Shown one piece after another: positions 14,079 through 27,870 of a stretch of 64,000 nt of DNA (position 1 is its first letter; every line of letters starts with the position of its first letter). The stretch is taken from positions 2,292 through 66,291 of the forward strand of contig JABMOS010000028.1 of the NCBI GenBank assembly GCA_013203185.1, in the 5' to 3' direction. This DNA comes from Fidelibacterota bacterium (lineage in GTDB: Bacteria > Fidelibacterota > UBA8477 > JABMPR01). The notes under the pieces were generated by a model. That model was not told the origin of the DNA. It did no database searches and saw only the letters and a program-made list of their open reading frames with translations. A program made the position numbers and the translations under genes.

Positions 14079-14204
14079 GATTTCAACCATGATAATTGCT
14101 TAGACACCTTTTGTAGGGCACTTCATTGTGCCCTAAATCATTGTTATTAAGTGGCAAGGCCTTATATTCCAAATCATCATAGATGTGGCATAGGGAGGTG
14201 TATC

Positions 14205-15095
14205 ATGCGAGCACAAAAATATCGATTTCCAATCGTGGTGATCCAGATGATTTGTTTGCTAGCGCTTCTCCAGCAGTGTGCCTGGCTTGTTGGCGACAAA
14301 GCCTCTGAGGATATAGTAAAACCTCGCCCAGTAGGGGGATATGAAACCCTGAGCACACGCATCCATTATCCCAGGGCCATTCGAGAGGCTGGCATTGAAG
14401 GGACTGTGACCGTTAACGCCCTCATTTCAATTGAAGGTCAGGTGAAGCAAACCCGGGTTATGAAATCCCTCCACCCGGAATTGGATCAGATTGTGACCAA
14501 CGCCATCAAACGTACCGCCTTTGAGCCGGCAACCAGGGCTGGCAAACCAGAAGAGGTCTGGATATCCATTCCATTCATTTTTGCTTTCAAAGATTGGTCA
14601 TCAAAAGACACACCATTCAAATCTTTCATCATGACTATCCATCCTGATCCAGCATACAAGAATTTTGAAGTTGAAATTGAGGGACAATTAAAAGATGGCC
14701 TGGAATGGCCTCAACGTTTTGAATGCCTGCTACCCTTTAATGCCTCCCAACCCTGGGTTCATGCTGGAGATGGTACGGCCCCCATTTCGGGGATTATGAA
14801 TGATGATAGGGGGGAGTGGTTAATCTTTCAAGTATCCAGCAGGGACCTGTCTTTCGGCTTCACCTATAAGGCCATGGATGAAGTATATAACCAGAAATTT
14901 TTATATGAATTCACCATGAATCACGCCCTCCCCGATTGGGTTTTGAGGGTGGTCTATGGCAGCCAGACAGTAAAATTTACACAAACACCAGATAGGACGA
15001 CCACCCTGGACAATGGGGAGACCCAGTTTGAATATGATTTTAGTGCCCAGGATACCTACGAGTCGAGGTATTTGGACATTGAACTTCAGAAATAG
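14205..15095 (+). CDS. TonB C-terminal-domain protein carrying an extra uncharacterised ~170 aa C-terminal domain
   Basis: ATG at 14205 with GGGAGG upstream. N-terminal TM segment. IHYPRAIREAGIEGTVTVNALISIEGQV...LDQIVTNAIKRTAFEPATRAGKPEEVWISIPFIF matches TonB_C. No Pro-rich spacer. Confidence 0.65.
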   Translation: MRAQKYRFPIVVIQMICLLALLQQCAWLVGDKASEDIVKPRPVGGYETLSTRIHYPRAIREAGIEGTVTVNALISIEGQVKQTRVMKSLHPELDQIVTNAIKRTAFEPATRAGKPEEVWISIPFIFAFKDWSSKDTPFKSFIMTIHPDPAYKNFEVEIEGQLKDGLEWPQRFECLLPFNASQPWVHAGDGTAPISGIMNDDRGEWLIFQVSSRDLSFGFTYKAMDEVYNQKFLYEFTMNHALPDWVLRVVYGSQTVKFTQTPDRTTTLDNGETQFEYDFSAQDTYESRYLDIELQK

Positions 15096-15252: not shown

Positions 15253-15789
15253 ATGGAAAAAGTACAGGGATATACCAGAAAAAAGACAATCATGGAGCAA
15301 TACCCCAGCCGACAAGCCCTGGTGTATTCTGGAGCGGCATTTCTTATCTTAGTCACAGGGCTAAGAACCGTTCTTTCTGTAGCAGAGGAAGGCTTCGGCT
15401 TTATAGAGTTTGTAACCATTGGCGCCCTGGCTGTAGAGTTCAGCCTCTTGCTTCTATATGCATTGACCATTTATCAGGCAGGAAAAGAAACTTTTCTGAT
15501 CACGCTTGAAGAAGAAGCAGCCGAAATGGAGGGTGGCGGGGAATCCGCCGATGGTAGCCCTGCCCCTGTGAAAGAGTTTGCTGTGCAGTCTGCAGATGTT
15601 CCCGAAGTTGCAAAAGAAATCAACAAGTTTACCAAACAAGCCACTGTCCTCATTGATCGGCTCGCAAAAAATGCAGAGCAAAGCGAGAATTTGAATCAAC
15701 ACCTGAAAGAACTGGCTGATGAGCAGATCAATATTCGGGTCCGCAATGAGATTCAACGATTGTTAAGCGCTAATATGAGTGCCAAATAA
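15253..15789 (+). CDS. GldL/PorL-like inner-membrane protein (T9SS/gliding motor A-type subunit homologue); tentative
   Basis: Two TM helices, VYSGAAFLILVTGLRTVL and TIGALAVEFSLLLLYAL, followed by a cytoplasmic coiled coil. GldL TM1 has Y..GAAVVI.GALFK and GldL/PorL TM2 carries a buried Glu (GldL ...GTEAL.., PorL ..LVEVVV..). Here both YS.GAA...I and the intramembrane Glu (AVEF) are present. Confidence 0.5.
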   Translation: MEKVQGYTRKKTIMEQYPSRQALVYSGAAFLILVTGLRTVLSVAEEGFGFIEFVTIGALAVEFSLLLLYALTIYQAGKETFLITLEEEAAEMEGGGESADGSPAPVKEFAVQSADVPEVAKEINKFTKQATVLIDRLAKNAEQSENLNQHLKELADEQINIRVRNEIQRLLSANMSAK

Positions 15790-15807
15790 ACCGACAGGAG
15801 TAGCCGC

Positions 15808-17220
15808 ATGGCTCGCAAGAAAAAGTTCCAAGCTCGTGTCGAAGTTTATTTTATCATTTATATCGCCACGATTGTCAGCTTCTTCGCTATCGAAGGTGAA
15901 GTAAAACATTTCAAAGATAACCAGAAGAAAATTTTACTGGAAGTATCTAAAGATAAGATCCAGAATCTTGTTAGAATTCGGAATGCCACCGATATTCACA
16001 GCAAAGACACCATCAACTTGAAGGTCTCACTTGACGGTGCGTTTTCAAAAGATTCCTTTGAGGGTATCGTCCACCTCAGCCCCATTGATGCACCAGAAGA
16101 GCTGGCGCTTAAAGATTTATCTTACAACCTGGCTCCCAAAAATCATGATCCAGACAATAAGACCTTTATTGCAGTCATTCCCAAATCAGATTTTGATTTA
16201 AAGGCTGAAATTCTATATCGTATGTCAGCGGATATTAGCGTGATGCCCGATGAGGAGTTAGTCCGGTTGGAATTGGAGAAGTCGTATTCAGATAAAACCA
16301 TTGTCCACAAGATCATGGATGCCATGACTGATGTGGGAAAAATTTCCCTGGAAAAAAAATTCCAAAACACACTGGATCCTGCTGGTGGGGCCATTCAGGC
16401 GCCTTTCACCATTACGGTGGACCGCCCCCGGGTCAGCATTGTTGAGGGATTACCCTGGGAAGTCCGGGTTATTATCGGTGGTATAGTCGATTCAGATGAT
16501 CTGGAGATTTCAGCCATTAAGGGTGGAAATCTCATTGGAAATCTCAGTGCCAGCACACCAGTTACAACCGTCTCAGGTAGAGGTCGCAAAGATGGTCAGA
16601 TCACCCTGCGGGGAACCAGGCTTTCTGATGAAGAATATGTCGATGTTGACTTCCAGCTTCAGGTGAGACCTCCCGTTTGGCAAAAGCCACCTTCGGTAAG
16701 CGAAGCCTACGTAGGCGACCCCTTTATCTTTGAAGGTGCACTAAGAGATATACCTTCCTCAGAGACATCTGTCCGAGTTGGTGGAACCGCAGTACGTGGC
16801 GGCATAATGCCTGGTACCGTTGCACAGCTACAAGATTTATCTGAAGAAGGCAATATAACCTTCCAGGTTCTGGTGGATGGTCGTGAAGTCAAGGGCATGA
16901 ATCATTCAGTCACAGTAGTAAAACCCCCAGCACCCAAGGTTTCAACCAATCCAGTAGGTCGCGATGGGAATTACCTAACCTTTGAGATTACCACTTATGG
17001 CAAGAACAATAGTATTCGACGCTTCAGGAAGAAAGGTGGCATCGGATCAAATCGCCAAATGGGAGAGGCTCAGGTTCTGGGAAGTCGTAAGATCTATCGC
17101 TGGGAAGTTGAACTTGAGGAACCCCTGGACAATGTTGAATCTCAGGAAATCAAGTTTAGCGTCGATGATCAAAACAAGAGTGCAACATCATACCGCAAAA
17201 TTTTTATCTATAACTACTAA
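15808..17220 (+). CDS. GldM/PorM-like bitopic periplasmic protein (T9SS/gliding motor B-type subunit homologue); tentative
   Basis: Single N-terminal TM segment, RVEVYFIIYIATIVSFFAIEGEV, with Arg and Tyr spaced R-x7-Y as in GldM (R9...Y17: RQKMINLMYLVFIAMLALNVSKEV). Then about 430 aa of beta-rich, Ig-like periplasmic sequence. 470 aa, against 513 for GldM. Confidence 0.5.
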   Translation: MARKKKFQARVEVYFIIYIATIVSFFAIEGEVKHFKDNQKKILLEVSKDKIQNLVRIRNATDIHSKDTINLKVSLDGAFSKDSFEGIVHLSPIDAPEELALKDLSYNLAPKNHDPDNKTFIAVIPKSDFDLKAEILYRMSADISVMPDEELVRLELEKSYSDKTIVHKIMDAMTDVGKISLEKKFQNTLDPAGGAIQAPFTITVDRPRVSIVEGLPWEVRVIIGGIVDSDDLEISAIKGGNLIGNLSASTPVTTVSGRGRKDGQITLRGTRLSDEEYVDVDFQLQVRPPVWQKPPSVSEAYVGDPFIFEGALRDIPSSETSVRVGGTAVRGGIMPGTVAQLQDLSEEGNITFQVLVDGREVKGMNHSVTVVKPPAPKVSTNPVGRDGNYLTFEITTYGKNNSIRRFRKKGGIGSNRQMGEAQVLGSRKIYRWEVELEEPLDNVESQEIKFSVDDQNKSATSYRKIFIYNY

Positions 17221-17270: not shown

Positions 17271-18575
17271 GTGAAAATACGAAACCTCATAACTTCATTT
17301 ATTATGCTTGTCTTTGTATCCACACTGTGGGCACAAGGATTTCAGGAAACGGGCAAGCTGGAATGGGTTGTTAAAGATCGTGAATTTAGCCGAAGCTTCA
17401 TGGAAGCCTACATCGATACCCTTATGGAGATTGATGATATGGCCGAATTGGAAGTTCAGGAAACTGATGAACTACGAGTGATTGTCGGCATCGATGTGGA
17501 AGGCCACGCCACCCTGGAAAGCATTTATGCTAAAGGACGCAGTGGTGTCTTGAACAAGCTGGTAACAGCGGTGTTGGATAGCATGGATGTAGAAATGGTT
17601 CAGCGCATTCAAAGTCGTAAATACAACTGGGACTATCTTGCCGCTGTGGATGTTGGCGGTGGCCGTGGTGATGTCATCAACGTTTTTGAGGAACGCAGCA
17701 ACAAGCAGGTCCGCGATGCTTTCTGGTGGACACATCGCCGCGTAGATATTTCCGTTTTTCCTCGAATGTTTATTCGTGTAAATCCCAATTTTGCTTTTGC
17801 CACGGAATTTGGACGACAGGATCTGGGTTTTCCTGCCGCAGCTTCCCGGACCCTGAACATGGGTCTGGCCACAGAAGTCTTAAAATTTTATGTGACGCTG
17901 CCTGCTTCCTATTTGAATCTCATGAAGAGTAGTAATTCTCCCCTTGAAGGAACATTCGGTGGTGTCTTGAAATTTGACTCCCCCAATTTTGGTGGTAGCC
18001 TGTCTTTTCAAGACATGAACTTTTTAGGAAATACAGATACAACCGGCTTCCTGAATCCTTCAAATGTGGTCTATAACCCCTCATCTGGCCAATTCTATTA
18101 TAGCTTCACCAGCCGTATTGGAACCACTGCCGACCAGCCAGGTTTTGTCCCCTTAGGATCACTACGCCTCCAGATAGGGTTTAGCTATATGCAATTTGCC
18201 TATGGTGATGTCCTGGATACTGAAGCTGGTGTTTCAGATGGTATTGGTTCCTTCAGGTTGCTGGACAAAAGTGATCCCCTGGAATCGGTATTTGGTCTGT
18301 TCAGAGCAGAGTATGCTTCGGACATGAACAACCGGTATTTCAATCGATTTAAATTGGCCGCTCAACTCAATATTGGCTTAAATGGCTTTGGTGGTTTTGA
18401 TTTCACCACAGCCTATACTATCACAGAATGGCTGGGTGTGAACTTGAACATGACCTACTTCTGGAGTCCCATGACTTTCAATTATCCTGATCCGACTCCA
18501 GGCTCAACCGAAACGCTTAGTTATGATTGGGAACCAGGTTTCTTCATTGTCCCATCCATAGCAGTGTACTTCTAG
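17271..18575 (+). CDS. Secreted putative outer-membrane beta-barrel protein (PorV/PorQ-like?), hypothetical
   Basis: SPI signal peptide ...LWAQG. Gly/aromatic-rich alternating amphipathic strands. Ends in ...IAVYF, a C-terminal Phe typical of OMP barrels. Confidence 0.4.
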   Translation: MKIRNLITSFIMLVFVSTLWAQGFQETGKLEWVVKDREFSRSFMEAYIDTLMEIDDMAELEVQETDELRVIVGIDVEGHATLESIYAKGRSGVLNKLVTAVLDSMDVEMVQRIQSRKYNWDYLAAVDVGGGRGDVINVFEERSNKQVRDAFWWTHRRVDISVFPRMFIRVNPNFAFATEFGRQDLGFPAAASRTLNMGLATEVLKFYVTLPASYLNLMKSSNSPLEGTFGGVLKFDSPNFGGSLSFQDMNFLGNTDTTGFLNPSNVVYNPSSGQFYYSFTSRIGTTADQPGFVPLGSLRLQIGFSYMQFAYGDVLDTEAGVSDGIGSFRLLDKSDPLESVFGLFRAEYASDMNNRYFNRFKLAAQLNIGLNGFGGFDFTTAYTITEWLGVNLNMTYFWSPMTFNYPDPTPGSTETLSYDWEPGFFIVPSIAVYF

Positions 18576-18581
18576 GAGGAT

Positions 18582-19856
18582 TTGAAAATGACTACATCAA
18601 TTCGCAAAATGCTCCTGGTGACACTCACATTGCTTGTCTCACTCTCTACAGTATGGGCCCAGCCCAAAGCTCCTCCAACGTTGGACCCCCGACGCTTTGA
18701 TGCGTGGACTGTTGAGTATGAACCCTTCCGTCTGCTTATAGAAAATGCCGTGGAAGAGTATATTACCCTTAACGATACGGATTTACCCCCCATTGCATCT
18801 ACAGACAACGTCATTGCCGTCAGATCCAAGTCGGGTCAACGACAGCTGTATCAAATTCGCTATGGAACCGTCTCAGAAGGGTACAACGTTATCGACAATA
18901 TGGAGGTGATGTGGGTGCTGGGTTCGACCCTGGCTCAGACCATTTCCGAGAAAGAAACCTATTATCACCTGGATACTTCTGAACCATATGAATCCACGAA
19001 ACATCAGCCAGAAATTGATTATCTGGAAGTGGAGTCTTTTTGGACCCACACTGATTTACAGATTGGTACGGATCGCCTGGTTTATCTCTTTGGGAAGTCT
19101 GGAGGAATAACCGTTGAATGGGGCAATGAGCTTTTGGGTCGTCCCTATGGTGAAGCTGGCTTTGCCCGGCTTGGCGTGATTACTCCCATCTTCAAAATGG
19201 GAATTCAAGTTCCCTCGCCCTCCATTCCACTAGGTTTCCGTACAGGTACAGACGATGCTGATGATCACCTTACTGGTGGTATAGGTGGTTTTGGTGCCTT
19301 TAAATACAAAGTTTTGTATGGAGAGTTGTTCTTCCAGTCCCTAGAGGCCGGCCTGGCCAGTGGCAGCTTTATCAATAGCTATGATTTAGGTGGTTTGATG
19401 AATCTCAGCTTTAACACCACCCTATCAGGTTTCCCCTTGGGCAAAGAAAAACGCCTTTTTGCAGGTGCCTTGCAGATCCGCCTCGGGGGTGTTATCGCCC
19501 GCGTTGACCATAGTAATATTGTAGATGATCGTATCAGCTTCCAGAATCTGAAACGCAGCTACAATGTGGCGACTGGAGACACCACGGAGGAATTTACAAA
19601 CGGGGAAGCAGCCTCACTGGAGGAGTCAGGACTTTTCTTTCGTCTCGATTATGCATCGCCACTAATAAAGAAACGCTACCCGCGTCATGAAGCTGTGTTT
19701 CAGGTTTCGGGTCCCAGTATCATGACAAAATACACATATAATGTCAACAAGACTTTAGGGTTGCCCCTTACTGTGCTAGTCTATACAGCGGATAATGAGT
19801 GGACACCCAATGCCGCCATACTGGTCGGCTTTAAATTGAGGCTTGATCAAAATTAA
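18582..19856 (+). CDS. Secreted putative outer-membrane beta-barrel protein, paralogue-like to the preceding gene
   Basis: SPI signal peptide ...VWAQP. Similar size (424 aa) and Gly/aromatic-rich strand pattern. Followed by a terminator. Confidence 0.4.
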   Translation: MKMTTSIRKMLLVTLTLLVSLSTVWAQPKAPPTLDPRRFDAWTVEYEPFRLLIENAVEEYITLNDTDLPPIASTDNVIAVRSKSGQRQLYQIRYGTVSEGYNVIDNMEVMWVLGSTLAQTISEKETYYHLDTSEPYESTKHQPEIDYLEVESFWTHTDLQIGTDRLVYLFGKSGGITVEWGNELLGRPYGEAGFARLGVITPIFKMGIQVPSPSIPLGFRTGTDDADDHLTGGIGGFGAFKYKVLYGELFFQSLEAGLASGSFINSYDLGGLMNLSFNTTLSGFPLGKEKRLFAGALQIRLGGVIARVDHSNIVDDRISFQNLKRSYNVATGDTTEEFTNGEAASLEESGLFFRLDYASPLIKKRYPRHEAVFQVSGPSIMTKYTYNVNKTLGLPLTVLVYTADNEWTPNAAILVGFKLRLDQN

Positions 19857-20085: not shown

Positions 20086-20589
20086 TTGCCGTTTCGATTA
20101 ACCAATGAAGGTGAATATGCCGTTCGTCTCATGGTTTATCTGGCGGGACGGGATCGTGAACAACTGGTCTCAGCCCGGGAAATAGCAGAAAACCAGAACA
20201 TCCCCCAGCGCTTTCTCAGAACCATTGTTTCTCAGTTTGTTAAGTTGGGGTTTGTCAAATCTTTTCAGGGTAATGGCGGAGGGGTTCGTCTTGCTGAAGG
20301 TGCTGAGAACAAAACATTACTGGAAATCATTGAGGCTGTTGAAGGCCCCATATATTTGAATGTCTGCATGCAGGGTGAAGTGGCTTGTCAGTTTTCCAGT
20401 CAGTGTGCTGTTCACCTTGTCTGGCATGAAGCACAAGATGCCATTCAAAAAATATTAGGTGGAAAAAAAATCAAAGAACTAGCCCAGGTGAATTTCGACC
20501 TGGCTGCCAACGGTTTCGGTGCAGGTTCTGATGCCATGTGTGGCATACCTGTGAGCACAGAAGAAACGAAAGCCCCCCGTGGCAATTAA
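20086..20589 (+). CDS. Rrf2-family (IscR/NsrR-like) Fe-S transcriptional regulator
   Basis: TTG start. wHTH N-terminus REIAENQNIPQRFLRTIVSQFVKLGFV. Three Cys spaced C-x6-C-x5-C (CMQGEVACQFSSQC), as in the cluster-ligating Rrf2 proteins. Confidence 0.8.
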   Translation: MPFRLTNEGEYAVRLMVYLAGRDREQLVSAREIAENQNIPQRFLRTIVSQFVKLGFVKSFQGNGGGVRLAEGAENKTLLEIIEAVEGPIYLNVCMQGEVACQFSSQCAVHLVWHEAQDAIQKILGGKKIKELAQVNFDLAANGFGAGSDAMCGIPVSTEETKAPRGN

Positions 20590-23026
20590 ATTTGATAAAT
20601 ACGAAACGGGTCGGGCGCCCACAGAACAGGGGAAAGTCCTGAGTTGTTTTCATTGTGGTGAACCCTGCCCGGACAACACCATATCAATTGGGGATAAAAG
20701 CTTCTGCTGCCATGGTTGTAAAACGGTTTTTGAAATTCTCAATGTCAATGAGATGTGTGACTACTATTCCATAGAGGATACCCCAGGCATAACACCCAAG
20801 CAGGATTTGATATCTGATCGGTTTGACTATCTCGATGACGAGACAGTGAGACCCCAGGTAATTGATTTTTCAGATGGCAAAACTGAGAAGGTGACTTTCC
20901 ATACGCCCACCATGCACTGTGCTTCTTGTATCTGGCTCCTGGAAAAACTGCATGAGATGGATTCACGAATTTTCAGCTCTCTGGTCAATTTCCCCAGGAA
21001 ACAAGTGACCATCACTTTTAACCGTGAACAAATGAAGCTCAGCGAGACAGCCGCACTGCTCTCATCACTGGGCTACGAACCTCTGGTTAGCCTTGATACA
21101 GTTGGGAAAAGAGAACAATCCTCTGCTGAAAAGAAACTATATCTGAAGATTGGCCTGGCTGGCTTTGCTTTTGGCAATGTCATGATCCTCAGTTTTCCAG
21201 AATACCTCTCCCGGGTTGGTTCAGTCGATACCACTTTCAAGATGGTGTTTGGATATCTCAGCCTGGTTATGTCTTTACCGATTCTCATTTTCGCCACCAA
21301 AGATTATTACCAATCAGCCTGGGCCGGTATCAGAAGCCGCACGGTTAATATTGATGTCCCTATCACCTTGGGTATCGGCATGCTCTTTTTCAGGTCAGCC
21401 TGGGAAATCCTCACTCAAACTGGTGTGGGTTATCTCGACTCCTTTACTGGCCTGGTGTTCTTCCTGTTGGTGGGCCGACTCTTTCAGCAGAAGACATATG
21501 AGATGCTCTCTTTCGAACGAGATTATAAATCCTTTTTCCCGCTGTCAGTCACCCGCAAGATCAACAATGTGGAGGCTGTGGTTCCCGTCTCAAAACTGAA
21601 ACCTGGTGATCGAATTGTGGTTCGGAATCAGGAATTGATACCAGCCGATTCTGTTCTCCTTAAAACAGTTGCATATATTGATTATAGCTTTGTAAGTGGC
21701 GAATCCACCCCAGTGACAAAGAATGCTGGTGATTTTATCTACGCTGGAGGTCGCCAGGCAGGAACAACTATTGAACTGGAAGTCATAAACGAATCCTCAC
21801 AAAGCTATCTGACCCAACTCTGGAATAATGACGTCTTTAGTAAACCAAGATTTTCAAGGTTGAATCAGCTGGTAAATCAGGTGAGTCACTACTTTACATT
21901 TGGCGTTTTAGCCATTGCAATTATTGCATCCATTTATTGGCTTCAAATTGATACTGCCACGGGCATCAAAGTATTTACATCTGTCCTGATTGTGGCCTGT
22001 CCCTGTGCCCTGGCTTTGTCCTCGCCTTTTGCACTGGGGACCACCATGCGCATTTTTGGCCGCAAAGGTTTTTATGTGAAAAATACGGATGCAGTTGAAG
22101 CCCTCTCCAAGATTAACACTATAGTGATGGACAAAACAGGCACCTTGACAGAATCCCGACAGGAAACCATAGAATTCTCAGGAGAGGTGCTTTCCCATGA
22201 GGATCAGGAAGTTATCAAGTCCCTGGTCCAGCATTCCACGCACCCCTTGAGTCAAAAAATATTTCAAGCACTGCATATTCATTCTGTTCATCCAGTAGAC
22301 AAATATAAGGAAATATCAGGTCGGGGAATTCAGGGTGTCATCGGTGGTCACAGCATCAAATTGGGCTCTGCCAAATGGTTGGGGATTCAAGAATCCAGCA
22401 ATGATGCTGAAGATATGAAAACACGGGTTTTTCTCAGTATGAATGATGAAGTCAGGGGCTCATTCCTAATTGCAAATGTGTTTCGCAAGGGCTTACGTCC
22501 ATTGCTCTCTGAATTGAATAAGGAATTCGACATGTATCTCCTCTCTGGTGATACAGAACGCGAAAAAGCCAAGTTGGTCAATCTCTTTGGAAGCAATGAA
22601 AACTTGCTCTTTCGACAGACCCCTGAGAATAAAATGGATTTTGTTGCAAAGGTTCAGGGAGAGGGCGCTCATGTTCTTATGGTGGGGGATGGTCTCAATG
22701 ATGCCGGCGCTTTGAGGGCCAGTGAAGTCGGTATCGCCATCACTGATGATGTCTCTGCCTTTTCTCCTGCCAGTGATGGAATCCTTACTGGTAAAAACCT
22801 GCACTTACTGGGGTCATTTATAAAAATGTCCAAGGCGACCACCTCGATTATCGTAGCCAGTTTTGTAATCTCAATTATTTATAATGTGGTTGGTGTTAGT
22901 TTCGCAGTAGCGGGAAAGCTGTCCCCACTGGTGTCGGCTATTCTTATGCCAGCCAGCTCTATTTCTGTCGTGGCTTTCACCACATTTACAACGAGCTTGC
23001 GAGCCAGAATGATGAGATTAACTTGA
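20579..23026 (+). CDS. ccoI: Copper-translocating P1B-type ATPase CcoI/FixI (cbb3 oxidase assembly)
   Basis: GTG start overlapping the rrf2 stop. N-terminal CxxC pairs (CFHCGEPC, CCHGC), HMA site MHCASC, CPC motif VACPCAL, DKTGTLT, GDGLNDAGAL. Confidence 0.9.
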   Translation: MAIKFDKYETGRAPTEQGKVLSCFHCGEPCPDNTISIGDKSFCCHGCKTVFEILNVNEMCDYYSIEDTPGITPKQDLISDRFDYLDDETVRPQVIDFSDGKTEKVTFHTPTMHCASCIWLLEKLHEMDSRIFSSLVNFPRKQVTITFNREQMKLSETAALLSSLGYEPLVSLDTVGKREQSSAEKKLYLKIGLAGFAFGNVMILSFPEYLSRVGSVDTTFKMVFGYLSLVMSLPILIFATKDYYQSAWAGIRSRTVNIDVPITLGIGMLFFRSAWEILTQTGVGYLDSFTGLVFFLLVGRLFQQKTYEMLSFERDYKSFFPLSVTRKINNVEAVVPVSKLKPGDRIVVRNQELIPADSVLLKTVAYIDYSFVSGESTPVTKNAGDFIYAGGRQAGTTIELEVINESSQSYLTQLWNNDVFSKPRFSRLNQLVNQVSHYFTFGVLAIAIIASIYWLQIDTATGIKVFTSVLIVACPCALALSSPFALGTTMRIFGRKGFYVKNTDAVEALSKINTIVMDKTGTLTESRQETIEFSGEVLSHEDQEVIKSLVQHSTHPLSQKIFQALHIHSVHPVDKYKEISGRGIQGVIGGHSIKLGSAKWLGIQESSNDAEDMKTRVFLSMNDEVRGSFLIANVFRKGLRPLLSELNKEFDMYLLSGDTEREKAKLVNLFGSNENLLFRQTPENKMDFVAKVQGEGAHVLMVGDGLNDAGALRASEVGIAITDDVSAFSPASDGILTGKNLHLLGSFIKMSKATTSIIVASFVISIIYNVVGVSFAVAGKLSPLVSAILMPASSISVVAFTTFTTSLRARMMRLT

Positions 23027-23045
23027 TGAAAAGTGAGCTTCACAA

Positions 23046-23246
23046 TTGTATGTAATGTTTATTCTGATGGCCTTTAGTCTAGGGGCTTCCCTTCTTTTTT
23101 TGGGAGCCTATATCTGGTCGGTTAAAAGCGGACAGTTTGATGACAAATACACACCCTCAGTACGAATGTTATTCGAAGATAAAAAAATATCAAAAAAAAC
23201 GGAACCCGGTCTTTATTCGGGAGATAAAAACGAGGAGATTAAATAA
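23046..23246 (+). CDS. ccoS: cbb3 oxidase maturation protein CcoS/FixS
   Basis: 66 aa with a single TM segment. The motif ...KSGQFDD... fits the FixS family. Position is between ccoI and ccoN. Confidence 0.7.
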   Translation: MYVMFILMAFSLGASLLFLGAYIWSVKSGQFDDKYTPSVRMLFEDKKISKKTEPGLYSGDKNEEIK

Positions 23247-25363
23247 TGGAGATGGAAAAATTTCAGTACGATAATAAAATCGTGCGAATGTTTTTCTGGG
23301 CCACCGTTATATGGGGTGTTACTGCCTTTCTGGTGGGGCTCACTATTGCACTTCAGTTACCAGCGCCGGCCTTTAATTTCGGCACCTCATGGTTGACCTT
23401 CGGTCGGCTGCGTCCCTTACACACCAATGCTGCCATTTTTGCTTTTGTGGGCAACGGTATTTTTATGGGATACTACTATTCAGCTCAAAGACTTTTAAAA
23501 GCACGAAATTTTTCCGATGTACTGAGTAAAATACATTTCTGGGGATGGCAGGGAATCATTGTTTCCGCGGTACTGACACTGCCTGCAGGTCTCACCTCAG
23601 CTAAAGAATACGCAGAACTGGAATGGCCAATTGATATTCTCATCGCACTCATTTGGGTGGCCTGGGGTGTGAACATGATGGGGACCATCCTTAAGCGCCG
23701 TGAGAAGCATCTCTATGTAGCAATCTGGTTTTACATCGCCACCTTTGTCACCGTTGCCATGCTCCACATTGTGAACTCTCTTGCCATTCCAGTGAGCTTC
23801 TGGAAAAGCTATTCGCTCTACGCCGGTGTGCAGGATGCCCTGGTTCAATGGTGGTATGGTCACAACGCTGTCGCGTTTTTCCTCACCACGCCTTATCTCG
23901 GTTTGATGTACTATTTCATGCCCAAAGCCGCTCAGCGGCCCGTCTATTCATATAGACTGTCTATCATTCACTTTTGGGCGCTCATCTTTCTTTATATCTG
24001 GGCCGGTCCCCACCACCTGCTTTATACCTCAACGCCAGATTGGGCACAAACCCTGGGAACTGTATTTTCCATCATGTTGATTGCTCCCTCATGGGGTGGC
24101 ATGCTCAACGGCCTCCTCACCTTACGTGGCGCCTGGGATCGAGTTCGCCAGGATCCCATCCTGAAATTTATGGTGGTGGCTGTCTCCGCTTATGGAATGT
24201 CCACATTTGAAGGACCCATGATGTCATTGAAAAACTATAATGCCATCACACATTTTACGGACTACACAATTGCACATGTCCATATCGGTGCACTGGGGTG
24301 GAACGGACTCTTGACCTTTGGTATGTTGTACTGGTTGGCTCCCCGGTTATGGAATGCCAAGCTATATTCCGTTAAGCTGGCCAATGTTCACTTCTGGTTG
24401 GCCACGCTTGGAATCATTTTCTATGTGATTCCCATGTACTGGACAGGAATTACCCAGGCCTTGCTCTGGAAGCAATTCACTCCAGAGGGAATGCTGGTCT
24501 ATCCAAACTTTCTGGAAACAGTCCTACAACTGGTGCCCATGTATTGGACGCGAGCGTTTGGTGGTACACTCTATCTCACAGGGTCATTGATTATGGTTTA
24601 CAACCTGGTTAAAACCGCTCGCTCTGGTGCCCCAATCCCGGATCCTGAAATGGAAGCTGCACCCCTGAAGCCCATCGTAACTGAACCTGGCGACCACAAA
24701 CATCGTTGGCTGGAAGCCCGTCCCATGTACCTCCTGGGCTTGGCTCTGGTTGCTGTGGCTATTGGTGGCATCGTAGAATTTGTGCCCATGTTTGTTGTGA
24801 AATCAAATGTTCCAACCATCAGCACTGTGACACCTTACTCACCCCTGGAGCTTGAGGGTCGGGATATTTACATCAAGGAGGGCTGCTTCAACTGCCATTC
24901 CCAGATGATTCGTCCCTTCAGAAGTGAAACCGAACGCTATGGTGAATATTCCAAGGCCGGTGAGTTCGTTTATGATCATCCCTTCTTGTGGGGCTCAAAA
25001 CGAACGGGACCAGATCTTCATCGCGAGGGTGTTGGCAAATTAAAAAAACCTGATGCCTGGCATTACAACCATATGGAAAATCCTCGCTCAATGAGTCCTG
25101 GATCCATTATGCCGGTATACCCCTGGTTATTGGAGCGATCCAATGATTATGACGATCTTCCCAAGAAGATCAGTGTTATGCGGACCCTGGGTGTGCCCTA
25201 TGCTGAAGGTTATGAAGAGCAGGCTCTGGATGATCTTAAGAAGCAGGCAGATGGTATTGTCGCAAATCTAAAGGAATCAGGCATTGAAACATCCTGGGAT
25301 AAAGAGATAATCGCTCTTATCGCATATCTTCAGAAACTTGGAACAGGAATTCTTCCCCAATAG
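23246..25363 (+). CDS. ccoNO: cbb3-type cytochrome c oxidase, fused subunits I+II (CcoNO)
   Basis: 705 aa. N-terminal 12-TM heme-copper oxidase domain (HNAVAFFLTTPYLG, HHLLYT, W..HFW). C-terminal CcoO part with heme-c site CFNCHSQMIRPF. The fusion is as seen in Bacteroidota and relatives. Confidence 0.93.
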   Translation: MEMEKFQYDNKIVRMFFWATVIWGVTAFLVGLTIALQLPAPAFNFGTSWLTFGRLRPLHTNAAIFAFVGNGIFMGYYYSAQRLLKARNFSDVLSKIHFWGWQGIIVSAVLTLPAGLTSAKEYAELEWPIDILIALIWVAWGVNMMGTILKRREKHLYVAIWFYIATFVTVAMLHIVNSLAIPVSFWKSYSLYAGVQDALVQWWYGHNAVAFFLTTPYLGLMYYFMPKAAQRPVYSYRLSIIHFWALIFLYIWAGPHHLLYTSTPDWAQTLGTVFSIMLIAPSWGGMLNGLLTLRGAWDRVRQDPILKFMVVAVSAYGMSTFEGPMMSLKNYNAITHFTDYTIAHVHIGALGWNGLLTFGMLYWLAPRLWNAKLYSVKLANVHFWLATLGIIFYVIPMYWTGITQALLWKQFTPEGMLVYPNFLETVLQLVPMYWTRAFGGTLYLTGSLIMVYNLVKTARSGAPIPDPEMEAAPLKPIVTEPGDHKHRWLEARPMYLLGLALVAVAIGGIVEFVPMFVVKSNVPTISTVTPYSPLELEGRDIYIKEGCFNCHSQMIRPFRSETERYGEYSKAGEFVYDHPFLWGSKRTGPDLHREGVGKLKKPDAWHYNHMENPRSMSPGSIMPVYPWLLERSNDYDDLPKKISVMRTLGVPYAEGYEEQALDDLKKQADGIVANLKESGIETSWDKEIIALIAYLQKLGTGILPQ

Positions 25364-25380
25364 GGAAGGATTATTTTCGG

Positions 25381-25566
25381 ATGTTAAGTCGCATTTATCC
25401 AGGAGCAGATGGCCTACAGTTCTTTCAAGGCCTTTCCCTGGTTCTGTTCTTTCTCGTCTTCGTGGGAGCTATCGTTATGATCGTGACCATGGGGAAGGGA
25501 CACATTGATAAAATGAGCAATATGCCCCTCGAGAGCGGGGATGATCACAATAATGGAGGCCTTTAA
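25381..25566 (+). CDS. ccoQ: Small membrane protein, CcoQ-like (cbb3 subunit IV)
   Basis: 61 aa with one TM segment. Position is between ccoNO and ccoP. Confidence 0.45.
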   Translation: MLSRIYPGADGLQFFQGLSLVLFFLVFVGAIVMIVTMGKGHIDKMSNMPLESGDDHNNGGL

Positions 25567-25568
25567 TA

Positions 25569-26357
25569 ATGGGTAAAGTCACAAATGAACTCATTGATCA
25601 CGACTATGATGGAATTCAAGAATATGATAACGATCTACCAGGTTGGTGGAAAGCATTATTCCTGATCACGATCATCATAGCAATAATATATGTACCCTAC
25701 TATCACACATATGGTGATCTGCAGGAAGCCGAGTATCAAAAGGAAATGGGTACTTATGTTGAAGCCAGCGTAGGTCGCAGCGCTTTTACAGCCTACTCAT
25801 CCCCCTGGGCCAGTGATGGAGAGATCACGCCAGCCCTAAGAGCAGAAATGGATAAAATCCTGGATGCTCCTTTTGATGAACAATTGATGCGGGCCATGGC
25901 AAAGGCTGACCCTGATCAATTAGCCAAACTGCAGGCAGCTTTTCCAGATGTTATTGCAGCTTACGGAAGTGGATCTATTTCTTCACCTGATCCAACACCT
26001 GCCCAAAAAGAAGAACCTGCAGCAACCGCTTCCTCAGGAATGGCCGCTCTCACCGATGATGCCAGTCTGGCAGCAGGTAAAAAGGTTTGGGATACACAAT
26101 GCTTTACCTGCCATCTCAATGATGGTGGTGGAAGTATTGGTCCAAACATGACTGATGATTACTGGATTCATGGTGGCGATATGGAGTCAATCGTACGTAT
26201 CATCAAAGTAGGTGTGCCAGCCAAGGGTATGATTCCCTGGGAAACTACCTTAACTCCCGATCAGATCATGCAAGTGGCCAGTTATATCAAGGTTAAAATT
26301 CATGGTACAACTCCAGCTGTGCCCAAGGCACCACAAGGAGACCTGTTTGAGGGATAG
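25569..26357 (+). CDS. ccoP: cbb3 oxidase subunit III CcoP/FixP, apparently mono-haem
   Basis: FixP_N motif HDYDGIQEYDNDLPGWW, TM helix, Ala/Pro-rich linker. Only one CxxCH (CFTCH) is present. Confidence 0.8.
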   Translation: MGKVTNELIDHDYDGIQEYDNDLPGWWKALFLITIIIAIIYVPYYHTYGDLQEAEYQKEMGTYVEASVGRSAFTAYSSPWASDGEITPALRAEMDKILDAPFDEQLMRAMAKADPDQLAKLQAAFPDVIAAYGSGSISSPDPTPAQKEEPAATASSGMAALTDDASLAAGKKVWDTQCFTCHLNDGGGSIGPNMTDDYWIHGGDMESIVRIIKVGVPAKGMIPWETTLTPDQIMQVASYIKVKIHGTTPAVPKAPQGDLFEG

Positions 26358-26380
26358 CCCATAAGGATATTACTGGGGAA

Positions 26381-26410
26381 GGAACTCACGCTTGACGTGA
26401 GTTCCTTTTG
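26381..26410 (+). terminator. Hairpin plus U-run between ccoP and ccoG (internal terminator or attenuator)
   Basis: GGAACTCACGcttgaCGTGAGTTCCttttg: a perfect 10-bp stem. Confidence 0.55.
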
Positions 26411-26454
26411 CCATATTAATTTACAGAAAACAAATACTTGGAGATAGCAGGTAA

Positions 26455-27870
26455 ATGGATCAGCCAGATAGAAATCTCACTAACATTGATGCCCCTTCGG
26501 CGTTTCGAGATAGAATTGCTTCCGTGGGGGATGATGGCAAGCGAAAATGGGTTTTCCCACGAAAACCCTTCGGGCGTTTCTATAACGCCAGAACCTGGTT
26601 TTCATATCTGCTCCTGGCCATCATGTTTAGTGGTCCCTTTATTACCATCAATGGACGACCATTTCTCCTGCTCAATATTATTGAGCGCAAATTTATTATT
26701 CTGGGTATGGCCTTTTGGCCCCAGGACAGTTTTATTTTTGTGCTGGCCACCCTGACATTTATTGTGGGGATTCTCTTGTTTACGGTCATTTTTGGCAGGC
26801 TTTTTTGTGGCTGGGCTTGTCCCCAAACCATCTTCCTGGAAATGGTCTTTCGCAAAATCGAATATCTCATTGATGGCAACGCCAATAAACAGCGCAAGCT
26901 GAAGGCCCAGAAATGGAATGCTGAAAAGATTTTCAAACGGATCTCAAAGCACGCCATCTTTTGGGTTCTGTCCTTTATTATCGGCAATACTTTTCTGGCC
27001 TATATCATTGGTAAGGATGAATTATTTGAGATCATCACTTCGCCGGTTTCAGAGCATGCAGGTGGCTTTGCAATCATGGTTCTGTTTACCACAATCTTCT
27101 ACTATGTCTATGCTTCTTTTCGGGAACAGATTTGTACACAAATTTGCCCCTATGGTCGCTTGCAGTCCGTGCTGCTGGATGACAAATCAATCGTGGTCGC
27201 CTATGATTTCACTCGAGGTGAAACTCGAGGCAACCCCAGGAAGAATACTACAGAGGAGCTAGGAGATTGTATTGACTGTAATCAGTGCGTTGAGGTTTGT
27301 CCTACAGGCATAGATATTAGAAATGGCACCCAGCTGGAATGTGTCAATTGTACGGCCTGTATCGATGCATGTGATACGGTCATGGACAAGGTCAAACGAC
27401 CACGTGGTTTGATTCGGTATGATTCATTTAATGGTATTCGAACAGGCGAAAAACTGAGTCTGAATTTTCGAAATATTGGTTATTCTGCAATGTTGGTAGC
27501 CCTTATAGTCTTCTTCTTTTTCCTACTGGTCACCCGTTCAGATGTTGAATCAACCATCTTGCGCTCCTATGGTACCATGTATCAGGATGTTGGGAATAAC
27601 CATTTCACAAATTTATATACAGTTAAAGTGCTCAATAAAACATTTGGTGATCTTCCTCTCCGGTTTGAATTGCTGGAACCCTCAGGAGAACTGAAGATGG
27701 TGGGAGACGATTTAGAAGTAAGCGGTCAGGACCAAACTGAGGGCGCGTTTTTTATCGATTTATCTGGCGATTTACTTGATGGTACGGAAACCAAACTAAA
27801 GATTACTGTGCATAGTGGTGACAGGCTCCTGGAAACAGTAAAAACATCATTTATGGGACCAAGGAAATAA
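26455..27870 (+). CDS. ccoG: cbb3 oxidase assembly ferredoxin CcoG/FixG/RdxA
   Basis: TM helices, CGWACP, and two 4Fe-4S motifs (CIDCNQCVEVCP, CVNCTACIDAC). Confidence 0.9.
   Translation: MDQPDRNLTNIDAPSAFRDRIASVGDDGKRKWVFPRKPFGRFYNARTWFSYLLLAIMFSGPFITINGRPFLLLNIIERKFIILGMAFWPQDSFIFVLATLTFIVGILLFTVIFGRLFCGWACPQTIFLEMVFRKIEYLIDGNANKQRKLKAQKWNAEKIFKRISKHAIFWVLSFIIGNTFLAYIIGKDELFEIITSPVSEHAGGFAIMVLFTTIFYYVYASFREQICTQICPYGRLQSVLLDDKSIVVAYDFTRGETRGNPRKNTTEELGDCIDCNQCVEVCPTGIDIRNGTQLECVNCTACIDACDTVMDKVKRPRGLIRYDSFNGIRTGEKLSLNFRNIGYSAMLVALIVFFFFLLVTRSDVESTILRSYGTMYQDVGNNHFTNLYTVKVLNKTFGDLPLRFELLEPSGELKMVGDDLEVSGQDQTEGAFFIDLSGDLLDGTETKLKITVHSGDRLLETVKTSFMGPRK

What the first reader, a model, noticed from the sequence alone, without database searches (positions are those of the whole stretch)
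15253..17220. Residue-level support for motor-type ion coupling: intramembrane Glu in the L-like protein and R-x7-Y in the M-like TM helix
The L-like TM1 (VYSGAAFLILVTGLR) resembles GldL TM1 (YGMGAAVVIVGALFK). Its TM2 contains the buried acidic residue (AVEF) that is functionally essential in GldL (Glu49) and PorL. The M-like single TM has Arg and Tyr with GldM-like spacing (Arg9/Tyr17 in GldM). These are specific, falsifiable predictions for a proton-driven 5:2 motor.
Basis: partly seen in the sequence, partly recalled or inferred. Interest (0 to 1): 0.7.

Follow-up and report, generated by a model that had tools for sequence, protein, structure and literature searches.

The report
Unannotated GldLM-like membrane motor pair
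Two adjacent unannotated genes of a marine Marinimicrobia (SAR406) bacterium look like a distant cousin of the proton-driven motor that powers type IX secretion and gliding in Bacteroidota. The buried glutamate claim holds up, the "Arg-x7-Tyr" claim does not, and true kinship to GldL/GldM is not proven.

Summary
The L-like protein (178 aa) has two TM helices and one long C-terminal helix. Glu62 ("AVEF") in TM2 is kept in 57 of 60 relatives down to about 20% identity, along with Tyr25, G27-A-A, Gly36 and Arg/Lys38.

Profile-profile alignment to GldL/PorL places Tyr25 on GldL Tyr13, Arg38 on Lys27 and Glu62 on Glu49. Its significance depends on the alignment used (P = 0.0012, 0.012 or 0.22). No Pfam, NCBIfam, PDB-sequence or fold search finds GldL. 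GldL's His30 and its cage motif are absent.

The M-like "R-x7-Y" is not supported:
- Arg10 is R, K or G.
- Tyr18 is Asn in the largest marine branch.
- The alignment to GldM scores no better than shuffled controls.

The conserved M residues are instead Tyr14 (23/23), Glu12 (22/23) and E29-G-E31.

L and M always sit in a four-gene cassette, L-M-X-Y, where X and Y are paralogous, apparently outer-membrane proteins (80 metagenome loci). In one distant lineage an L-M pair lies directly upstream of bona fide T9SS PorU and PorV.

Best reading: a divergent GldLM/PorLM-type ion-driven envelope motor. This rests on inference, not demonstration.

The parts
14151..15095 (+). TonB_C-domain protein (314 aa): N-terminal TM, TonB_C at residues 71-144, then an extra C-terminal domain of about 170 aa. 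It is a possible accessory part in this clade only.
   Evidence: Pfam TonB_C 9.9e-17 and TIGR01352 7e-13. It is syntenic directly upstream of L in the closest clade (L095; L096-L105 and L113). It is absent in more distant cassettes (L086; all other loci).
15253..15789 (+). L-like protein (178 aa): two TM helices and one long cytoplasmic helix. It is the proposed ring subunit of the motor.
   Evidence: ORF. AF2 pLDDT 86 with helices 13-46, 50-93 and 113-177. 31 close homologues, all from Marinimicrobia or unnamed MAGs. 61 representatives in the exhaustive HMM search. No Pfam or NCBIfam family.
15316..15381 (+). L TM1 (about A22-V43), holding Tyr25 (15325-15327), G27-A28-A29, Gly36 and Arg38 (15364-15366).
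   Evidence: Conservation in 60 sequences: Y25 57, G27 55, A28 60, G36 60, R38 R50/K8. hhalign maps Y25 on GldL Y13, GAA on GAA and R38 on K27.
15400..15474 (+). L TM2 (about F50-Y74) with the buried Glu62 (15436-15438) in 'AVEF'. A conserved stripe runs T55, L59, E62, L66, Y69, I73.
   Evidence: E62 57/60, F63 53/60, Y69 48/60 and 36/36 in metagenome variants. It aligns to GldL E49 in every hhalign run. E52 is conserved only in the close clade (12/60).
15808..17220 (+). M-like protein (470 aa): N-in single TM, a stalk helix (31-52), an alpha/beta domain (55-185) and three Ig-like beta-sandwich domains (about 199-290, 299-371, 383-467). It is the proposed axle and periplasmic shaft.
15835..15900 (+). 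M TM helix (V11-I28) with flanking residues: Arg10 (15835-15837), Glu12 (15841-15843), Tyr14 (15847-15849), Tyr18 (15859-15861) and E29-G30-E31 (15892-15900).
   Evidence: Conservation in 23 sequences: R10 R12/K10/G1, E12 22, Y14 23, F15 23, Y18 Y15/N8, E29 22, E31 23. Variants: KKGVEVYFVIY, KKVEVYFLIN, PKASFYFVLY and RRVDIYFVLY.
17271..18575 (+). X (434 aa): signal peptide and a C-terminal '...SIAVYF'. It is a probable outer-membrane protein and the third gene of the cassette.
   Evidence: ORF. No Pfam, NCBIfam or PDB-sequence match. Orthologues in L084, L086, L088 and L091 all end in F. Present downstream of M in every sufficiently long locus.
18582..19856 (+). Y (424 aa): signal peptide; a paralogue of X and the fourth gene of the cassette.
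   Evidence: BLASTP X against Y gives E = 3e-6 over 278 aa. Orthologues in L086, L091 and L095. A second XY-type gene occurs in most loci.

Best explanation
L and M form an inner-membrane, ion-driven (probably proton-driven) motor of the GldLM/PorLM type. It is either a very remote homologue or a close structural analogue.

Proposed mechanism:
- Several copies of the two-TM L protein surround the single TM helices of an M dimer.
- The nearly invariant Glu62 on the conserved face of L TM2 is the protonatable coupling residue, bracketed by L Tyr25 and M Tyr14.
- It faces the cytoplasmic end of the M helix, which carries a basic residue (Arg10 here) and a nearly invariant Glu12.
- Ion flow changes L-M helix packing. 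The movement passes along M's stalk helix and its chain of Ig-like domains across the periplasm to the two paralogous outer-membrane proteins X and Y encoded just downstream.

Shown:
- topology;
- residue conservation;
- the conserved four-gene cassette;
- linkage of a distant L-M pair to PorU and PorV.

Inferred:
- homology to GldLM;
- 5:2 stoichiometry;
- ion coupling;
- rotation;
- the outer-membrane location and role of X and Y.
For: 1. Architecture equals GldL plus GldM. L has two TM helices and a cytoplasmic helical tail. M has an N-in single TM and about 440 periplasmic residues ending in three Ig-like domains. The genes are 18 bp apart.
2. A charged residue is kept in the middle of a TM helix across a family that has diverged to 20-30% identity: E62 57/60 and 36/36.
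3. Every hhalign run against GldL puts E62 on E49 and Y25 on Y13. The best run also puts R38 on K27, with P = 0.0012, and only 1 of 150 within-segment shuffles reached the score. These are the residues shown by mutagenesis to matter in GldL (preprint 10.1101/2020.05.11.089193; PMC8986121).
4. M keeps a conserved Glu at the periplasmic end of its TM (E31, 23/23), as GldM does with its own E31.
5. L-M-X-Y order holds in all 80 metagenome loci that are long enough, over M identities of 25-92%, and in L086, L088 and L091.
6. In L094 and L093 a distant L-M pair lies directly upstream of PorU and PorV. That L matches the L profile at E = 3.6e-4 against 1.8 billion proteins. That M's N-terminus matches the M profile at 5e-6. 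PorU scores 741 bits on NF033707 (cutoff 420) and PorV 251 bits on NF033710 (cutoff 250).
Against: - No curated GldL/PorL or GldM/PorM model matches the window proteins at E <= 1. The same holds for 59 of 60 L relatives and all 18 M relatives. The single exception is a weak TIGR03513 hit at 1.9e-4.
- Profile HMMs of each family score the other at only a few bits.
- The hhalign signal is unstable: P = 0.012, 0.056 and 0.22 with other alignments.
- Fold searches return only generic helical hairpins (L) and generic tandem Ig domains (M).
- GldL His30 and the conserved post-TM2 cage motif (D-W-x-x-V-Y-P-E-L) are absent.
- GldM's invariant Tyr17 has no invariant counterpart at the aligned position.
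- GldM D1 is all-helical, whereas M has one helix and then an alpha/beta domain.
- No GldK/PorK or GldN/PorN is present. X and Y match nothing known.
- The PorU/PorV linkage comes from one lineage only (two closely similar contigs). It is absent from the 80 marine loci.
Confidence: 0.5

Rival explanations
1. L is an unrelated two-TM coiled-coil scaffold. L and M would form a static trans-envelope tether or assembly platform for the outer-membrane proteins X and Y, with no ion-driven movement. The conserved Glu, Tyr and small residues (GAA, G36) would serve only helix-helix packing and oligomerisation.
For: - No significant sequence or fold match to any motor family.
- The similarity to GldL is short, hydrophobic and alignment-dependent.
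- The L C-terminus is one long coiled-coil-type helix that draws only generic coiled-coil hits.
- GxxxG-like small-residue motifs and polar residues are common drivers of TM oligomerisation (general knowledge).
Against: - A carboxylate kept as Glu (57 E, 1 D, 2 Q of 60) in mid-membrane is costly and is typical of ion-coupled machines.
- A second nearly invariant carboxylate (M E12) and invariant Tyr residues lie at the same cytoplasmic-side level.
- The register of Y25, R38 and E62 coincides with the functionally essential GldL residues.
- A family member is linked to PorU and PorV, whose system is motor-driven.
Confidence: 0.25
2. It is an ion-driven motor, but its chemistry follows MotAB/ExbBD/TolQR rather than GldLM. 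The key proton-binding carboxylate would be Glu12 on the single-TM axle protein M, equivalent to MotB Asp32, ExbD Asp25 or TolR Asp23. L Glu62 would play a secondary role. The upstream TonB_C protein might be a client in this clade.
For: - M E12 is 22/23 conserved and is D in L093/L094. It sits two residues into the TM from the cytoplasmic side, where the MotB/ExbD/TolR Asp lies (position from established knowledge).
- GldM has no such carboxylate (alignment: PRQKMINLMY).
- A TonB_C gene is syntenic directly upstream in the window's clade.
Against: - L has two TM helices, not the three or four of MotA/ExbB/TolQ, and has no MotA_ExbB Pfam match.
- M has no ExbD, OmpA or MotB domain.
- E12 is Ser in the most distant cassette, L091, while L keeps its Glu there.
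- The TonB_C gene is missing from most cassettes.
Confidence: 0.15
3. The M-like 'R-x7-Y' is a coincidence. Arg10 would be an ordinary positive-inside topogenic residue and Tyr18 one of several aromatic residues in a Tyr/Phe-rich helix, with no specific correspondence to GldM Arg9 and Tyr17.
For: - R10 varies (R12/K10/G1) within a Lys/Arg-rich N-terminus.
- Y18 is Asn in 8 of 23 sequences and in 12 of 14 distinct metagenomic motifs.
- The hhalign score of the N-termini equals that of shuffled controls.
- The GldLM authors themselves note that GldM R9 probably acts as a topogenic signal.
Against: - The unconstrained hhalign alignment does pick R10 on R9 and Y18 on Y17.
- The distance from the basic residue to the conserved periplasmic Glu is 21 residues here against 22 in GldM.
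- R-x7-Y recurs in L082, L086, L090 and L093.
Confidence: 0.7

Closest known systems
GldL/GldM (PorL/PorM), the proton-driven 5:2 motor of the type IX secretion and gliding machinery of Bacteroidota (PDB 6YS8, 7SAT, 7SAU, 7SAX, 7SAZ)
   Same: - The gene pair runs in the same order.
- L has two TM helices and a cytoplasmic helical tail.
- M has an N-in single TM and a long periplasmic rod ending in Ig-like domains.
- There is a near-invariant Glu in L TM2, a Tyr near the cytoplasmic end of TM1 and a basic residue at the periplasmic end of TM1, all in GldL register by hhalign.
- M has a conserved Glu at the periplasmic end of its TM.
- One family member is adjacent to PorU and PorV.
   Different: - Nothing matches PF22827/TIGR03513 or the GldM models.
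- There is no His30 equivalent and no D-W-x-x-V-Y-P-E-L cage motif.
- The GldM motif P-R-Q-K-M-I-N-L-M-Y is replaced by [RK]-V-E-V-Y-F-x-I-[YN], which adds a carboxylate.
- M's first periplasmic domain is alpha/beta, not a helical bundle.
- The partners are two novel paralogous proteins, X and Y, instead of GldK and GldN.
- The host is Marinimicrobia (Fidelibacterota), which the review checked does not list among the FCB phyla where T9SS may occur.
ExbB/ExbD-TonB, TolQ/TolR-TolA and MotA/MotB 5:2 motors
   Same: - An inner-membrane ring-plus-axle logic that reaches the outer membrane.
[quoted passage not shown]
- A TonB_C-domain gene next door in this clade.
   Different: - L has two TM helices, not three or four, and no MotA_ExbB domain.
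- M has no ExbD, TolR or OmpA-like domain.
- M itself spans the periplasm with Ig-like domains.
ZorA/ZorB (Zorya anti-phage 5:2 motor)
   Same: The ring subunit carries a long C-terminal helix that could form a cytoplasmic coiled-coil tail. One L relative gave weak ZorA model hits (2e-4 and 5e-3).
   Different: The hits come from the coiled-coil region only. The genes sit among housekeeping genes, not in a defence context, with no ZorC or ZorD. The partners are secreted or outer-membrane proteins.

Membership tests
GldL/PorL (Pfam PF22827, NCBIfam TIGR03513) | Match to the curated family model | tested here: not met
   There was no hit at E <= 1 for the window protein. PF22827 was not among the families listed for any of the 60 relatives. 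One weak TIGR03513 hit (1.9e-4) appeared among the 60. A PDB profile search did not find 6YS8 or the 7SA* entries. True GldL fragments all carry PF22827.
GldL/PorL | Two N-terminal TM helices (N-in, C-in) followed by a cytoplasmic helical domain | tested here: met
   The AF2 model has pLDDT 86 with helices 13-46, 50-93 and 113-177. A Lys/Arg-rich N-terminus precedes TM1.
GldL/PorL | Strictly conserved Glu in TM2 (Glu49), essential for function | tested here: met
   E62 is 24/24, 57/60 and 36/36. It aligns to E49 in all hhalign runs. Function was not tested.
GldL/PorL | Conserved Tyr near the cytoplasmic end of TM1 (Tyr13) | tested here: met
   Y25 is 57/60 and aligns to Y13.
GldL/PorL | Invariant periplasmic-loop Lys27 and His30 | tested here: not met
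   R38 (R50/K8 of 60) aligns to K27, a conservative match. The position aligned to H30 is Leu41 and is variable.
GldL/PorL | Conserved membrane-proximal cage motif after TM2 (D-W-x-x-V-Y-P-E-L) and Glu59 | tested here: not met
   The motif is invariant in the 5 solved GldL/PorL proteins and in 120 homologues. It is absent from L, which has ...YALTIYQAGKETF.... Only some distant relatives have an [FY]-x-P-[ED] stretch.
GldL/PorL | Statistically significant remote homology (profile-profile) | tested here: inconclusive
   hhalign gives P = 0.0012, with 1 of 150 shuffles reaching the score. Other alignments give 0.012, 0.056 and 0.22. HMM-to-sequence scores are at most 7 bits.
GldL/PorL | Pentameric ring around a GldM dimer; Glu49-Arg9 salt bridge | not testable with these tools
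   No multimer prediction and no model coordinates are available. The fold search with the monomer was uninformative.
GldM/PorM (Pfam GldM domain models, NCBIfam TIGR03517) | Match to the curated family models | tested here: not met
   There was no hit at E <= 1 for the window protein or for 18 relatives.
GldM/PorM | Invariant Tyr17 and highly conserved Arg9 in or before the TM helix | tested here: not met
   Y18 is Y15/N8 and R10 is R12/K10/G1. The N-terminal hhalign score equals that of shuffles. The invariant Tyr is Y14, one helical turn earlier.
GldM/PorM | Single N-terminal TM helix, then a long periplasmic region of four domains (D1 helical, D2-D4 beta-sandwich) | tested here: inconclusive
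Type IX secretion system (as a system) | Motor genes together with PorK/GldK and PorN/GldN | tested here: not met
   The neighbours are a TonB_C protein upstream and X and Y downstream. There is no FGE-sulfatase/GldK or GldN match.
Type IX secretion system (as a system) | Association with the outer-membrane T9SS parts PorU and PorV | tested here: inconclusive
   The association is met for the distant pair in L093/L094, where PorU and PorV pass NCBIfam cutoffs. It was not seen within 9 kb in the 80 marine loci or in the parts of the window checked. The rest of the genome could not be searched.
MotA/ExbB/TolQ with MotB/ExbD/TolR | MotA_ExbB channel domain in the ring subunit; conserved Asp in the single TM of the partner | tested here: not met
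   There is no MotA_ExbB or ExbD match. Only an analogous carboxylate is present: M Glu12, 22/23.

The most novel reading that the evidence does not exclude
L-M is a previously unrecognised branch of GldLM-type rotary motors outside Bacteroidota, too divergent for current family models. In SAR406/Marinimicrobia it would drive a new outer-membrane machine built from the paralogues X and Y. In another lineage it would serve as the missing motor for a PorU/PorV-containing type IX-like secretion system. Its axle would carry its own carboxylate (Glu12), a hybrid between GldLM and MotB/ExbD coupling chemistry.
Probability: 0.35. Interest if true: 0.8.

Novelty: new variant of a known kind. Interest (0 to 1): 0.6.

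Why it matters
GldLM is one of only a few families of ion-driven 5:2 motors. It is described as specific to Bacteroidota and its type IX secretion and gliding apparatus.

A recognisable but very divergent relative would be informative in several ways:
- It occurs in one of the most abundant uncultured marine phyla.
- It is wired to two unknown outer-membrane proteins, and in another lineage to PorU and PorV.
- It would widen the known distribution of this motor class.
- It would show which residues are truly indispensable: the TM2 Glu and TM1 Tyr, but not the GldM Arg/Tyr pair or the GldL cage.
- It would point to a new envelope-spanning machine in SAR406.

Tried and rejected
- **Family models.** Pfam and NCBIfam scans of L, M, X, Y and of 60 L and 18 M relatives found no GldL, GldM, ExbB, ExbD or MotA. 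The hits were coiled-coil noise such as DUF948, MCE, IcmG and ZorA.
- **PDB sequence searches.** Profile searches with L and with X/Y found nothing relevant.
- **Fold searches.**
  - The L model gave only generic helical hairpins in Foldseek, with no GldL in the top 50.
  - The AFDB library, which holds full-length GldL models, was unavailable.
- **Bridging subgroup.** I tested whether a more GldL-like subgroup of distant L relatives (the 'GLRGL ... [FY]xP[ED]' type) bridges to GldL. It did not: hhalign P = 0.056.
- **Full-length comparison.** L against GldL over the full length did not extend the alignment into the cytoplasmic domain (P = 0.22).
- **Fused-chain prediction.** I prepared a fused L5-M2 single-chain construct for AlphaFold.
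- **Metagenome scan with L alignments.** The M alignment worked.
- **Promoter and terminator scan.** The counts matched chance, so the scan was uninformative.
- **X/Y as PorV relatives.** Rejected: the best BLASTP E-value was 0.21.
- **P0146.** This 400-aa protein carries an L-like C-terminal half but stands alone without an M partner. I left it out of the argument.
- **Literature.** No paper in the library links Marinimicrobia with T9SS.
Full report
**What is there.**
The interval holds two adjacent + strand ORFs, L-like (15253-15789, 178 aa) and M-like (15808-17220, 470 aa), 18 bp apart. Two ORFs with signal peptides follow:
- X, 17271-18575, 434 aa
- Y, 18582-19856, 424 aa

A TonB_C-domain protein precedes them (14151-15095; Pfam TonB_C 1e-16). 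Around the cluster lie housekeeping genes:
- ValRS and a PafA-like phosphatase;
- an Rrf2 regulator and the cbb3-oxidase genes;
- Opp-type ABC transporter genes and DnaE.

Close homologues of L and M come only from Candidatus Marinimicrobia or unnamed MAGs, and all are annotated as hypothetical.

**The observation.**
The named residues are present:
- L has V24-YSGAAFLILVTGL-R38 and A60-V-E62-F63.
- M begins MARKKKFQA-R10-V-E12-V-Y14-FII-Y18.

My recalled GldL and GldM sequences were checked against PDB 6YS8 and were essentially exact. GldM R9/Y17 and GldL Y13/K27/H30/E49 are therefore the right comparators. Their functional importance comes from the GldLM structure preprint (10.1101/2020.05.11.089193), its follow-up (10.1101/2022.01.28.478170) and Vincent et al. 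(PMC8986121).

**Family membership by sequence and fold.**
- Neither protein matches any Pfam or NCBIfam model for GldL/PorL or GldM/PorM at E <= 1.
- An exhaustive HMM search of 1.84 billion representatives with the L profile found 61 relatives.
- Among 60 of them, only one gave a weak TIGR03513 hit (1.9e-4). None gave a listed PF22827 hit. Real GldL fragments all carry PF22827.
- The AF2 model of M (pLDDT 81) shows a TM segment, a helix (31-52), an alpha/beta domain (55-185) and three beta-sandwich domains.
- The AF2 model of L (pLDDT 86) is a helical hairpin (13-46, 50-93) plus one long helix (113-177).
- Foldseek finds only generic hairpins for L, with nothing at E < 0.001.

By these tests the proteins are not members of the GldL or GldM families as currently defined.

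**Remote similarity of L to GldL.**
- I compared the N-terminal part of the extended L family with 125 GldL/PorL N-termini. hhalign gave P = 0.0012.
- That alignment places Y25 on Y13, G27AA on G16AA, R38 on K27 and E62 on E49.
- Column shuffles that keep the TM-loop-TM layout averaged 11.1 +/- 2.8 against an observed score of 20.2. Only 1 of 150 reached it. The reversed profile scored 10.5.
- The same residue correspondences recur with other alignments, but significance falls to 0.012 (five PDB sequences) and 0.22 (full-length, Flavobacteriaceae only). A separate run with a distant L subgroup gave 0.056 and aligned TM1 only.
- HMM-to-sequence scores are only a few bits.

I therefore call homology suggestive, not established. 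GldL's invariant His30 and its conserved cage motif D-W-x-x-V-Y-P-E-L are absent from L.

**Residue conservation.**
In the L family (60 sequences, down to about 20% identity):

| Residue | Count |
|---|---|
| Y25 | 57 |
| G27 | 55 |
| A28 | 60 |
| G36 | 60 |
| R38 | R50 / K8 |
| E62 | 57 (plus 1 D, 2 Q) |
| F63 | 53 |
| Y69 | 48 |

- In 36 distinct metagenomic variants, Y25 and E62-F63 are invariant.
- The conserved TM2 positions 55, 59, 62, 66, 69 and 73 form one helical face that includes the Glu.
- E52, conspicuous in the window, is conserved only in the close clade (12/60).

In M (23 sequences):

| Residue | Count |
|---|---|
| R10 | R12 / K10 / G1 |
| E12 | 22 |
| Y14 | 23 |
| F15 | 23 |
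| Y18 | Y15 / N8 |
| E29 | 22 |
| E31 | 23 |

- Most marine variants read KKVEVYFLIN.
- hhalign of the M and GldM N-termini does choose R10 on R9 and Y18 on Y17. Its score (10.7) equals the shuffle mean (10.2), and 57 of 150 shuffles scored at least as high.
- The informative M residues are Y14, E12 and the periplasmic E-G-E. E31 parallels the conserved but dispensable GldM E31.
- The carboxylate at M position 12 has no GldM counterpart. It recalls the Asp of MotB, ExbD and TolR (general knowledge).

**Genomic context.**
- L is always followed by M. Pairs were seen at 32-46% L identity (L082, L086), in still more distant pairs (L088, L090, L091) and in a separate branch (L084).
- A metagenome scan returned 80 loci with M identities of 25-92%. 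Every locus long enough has the order L, M, X-type, and usually a second X/Y-type gene.
- X and Y are paralogues (E = 3e-6).
- They have signal peptides and mostly end in an aromatic residue, typically F. This suggests outer-membrane beta-barrels, but that is inference.
- X and Y match nothing in Pfam, NCBIfam or PDB sequences, and they do not match PorV.
- The TonB_C gene is syntenic only in the window's clade.

**Link to type IX secretion.**
- A distant L relative, P0142/P0285, matches the L profile at E = 3.6e-4 against the whole library.
  - Its TM1 reads FVYAGAAFLLVMIGLLRL.
  - Its TM2 reads ...LSIEAFLLLL.
- It is followed by a 513-aa M-type protein with N-terminus RRRRVDIYFVLY..., which matches the M profile at 5e-6 over the N-terminal 80 residues.
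- Next come a bona fide PorU (NF033707, 741 bits, cutoff 420) and PorV (NF033710, 251 bits, cutoff 250).
- This is the only direct tie to a known system, and it rests on two closely similar contigs.
- A 2024 review lists several FCB phyla where T9SS may occur and does not include Marinimicrobia. No paper in the library links the two.

**Interpretation.**
The most economical reading is a GldLM/PorLM-type ion-driven envelope motor of a divergent kind:
- a ring of two-TM L subunits with E62 as the protonatable residue;
- an M dimer as the axle and periplasmic shaft;
- X and Y as the outer-membrane end.

I put this at about 0.5. The main rival is a static two-TM coiled-coil scaffold unrelated to GldL (about 0.25). 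A variant has the coupling carboxylate on M (Glu12), as in MotB and ExbD (about 0.15). Stoichiometry, salt-bridge geometry and ion dependence could not be tested with these tools.

**Verdict.**
The Arg/Tyr observation is literally true in this sequence but is not conserved and is not above chance. The motor interpretation is plausible and gains independent support from gene context, but membership of the GldL and GldM families is not demonstrated.

- Novelty: new variant of a known kind
- Interest: about 0.6

Noticed in passing
window 17271-19856 (X and Y); L084, L086, L088, L091, L095-L175: Two paralogous secreted proteins of about 430 aa follow L-M in every locus examined. They have no match in Pfam, NCBIfam or PDB sequences, and their C-termini mostly end in an aromatic residue (typically F), as outer-membrane proteins' often do. 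They form an uncharacterised family in their own right.
   Followed up: partly
L094 4951-12317 (GCA_036847245.1) and L093 5381-10254 (GCA_002405405.1): A distant L-M pair is followed directly by T9SS sortase PorU and channel protein PorV, both passing NCBIfam cutoffs, and preceded by LptF/G. No canonical PorL/PorM model matches this pair.
   Followed up: partly
window 14151-15095: An unusual TonB_C-domain protein (314 aa) has a single N-terminal TM and an extra C-terminal domain of about 170 aa. It also gives a weak match to the AgmX/PglI C-terminal domain (1.5e-5). It is syntenic upstream of L only in the window's clade.
   Followed up: partly
L084 11191-13524 and the second XY-type genes of L119, L124, L126, L135 and others: In the abundant divergent marine branch, the gene after X is about 770 aa. 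It combines an X/Y-type region with cadherin/Big_9/tandem-95 repeats. A neighbouring TPR protein gives a weak PorW/SprE hit (1.8e-6, far below the cutoff).
   Followed up: no
P0146 in L092 9001-10203: A 400-aa protein has a C-terminal half like L (TM hairpin with Glu, then coiled coil), fused to an N-terminal membrane region. It stands alone with no M-type neighbour.
   Followed up: no
window 20086-27870: A cbb3-oxidase cluster lies directly downstream. It comprises an Rrf2 regulator, a CcoI-type P-type ATPase (815 aa), CcoS (66 aa), an apparent fused CcoN-CcoO ORF of 705 aa (its C-terminal part contains a CFNCH haem-c motif) and CcoG. The Rrf2 and ATPase genes keep their position after Y in relative L095.
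   Followed up: no
L095 1-528: A FliG gene lies about 6 kb from the cassette in a 72%-identical relative. These Marinimicrobia may therefore also carry flagellar (MotAB-type) motors.
   Followed up: no
L016 (CALLZX010000437.1, labelled Ignavibacteriales MAG): This contig carries a gldL 86% identical to that of Flavobacterium johnsoniae. That is more likely a binning contaminant than an Ignavibacteriales gene.
   Followed up: no
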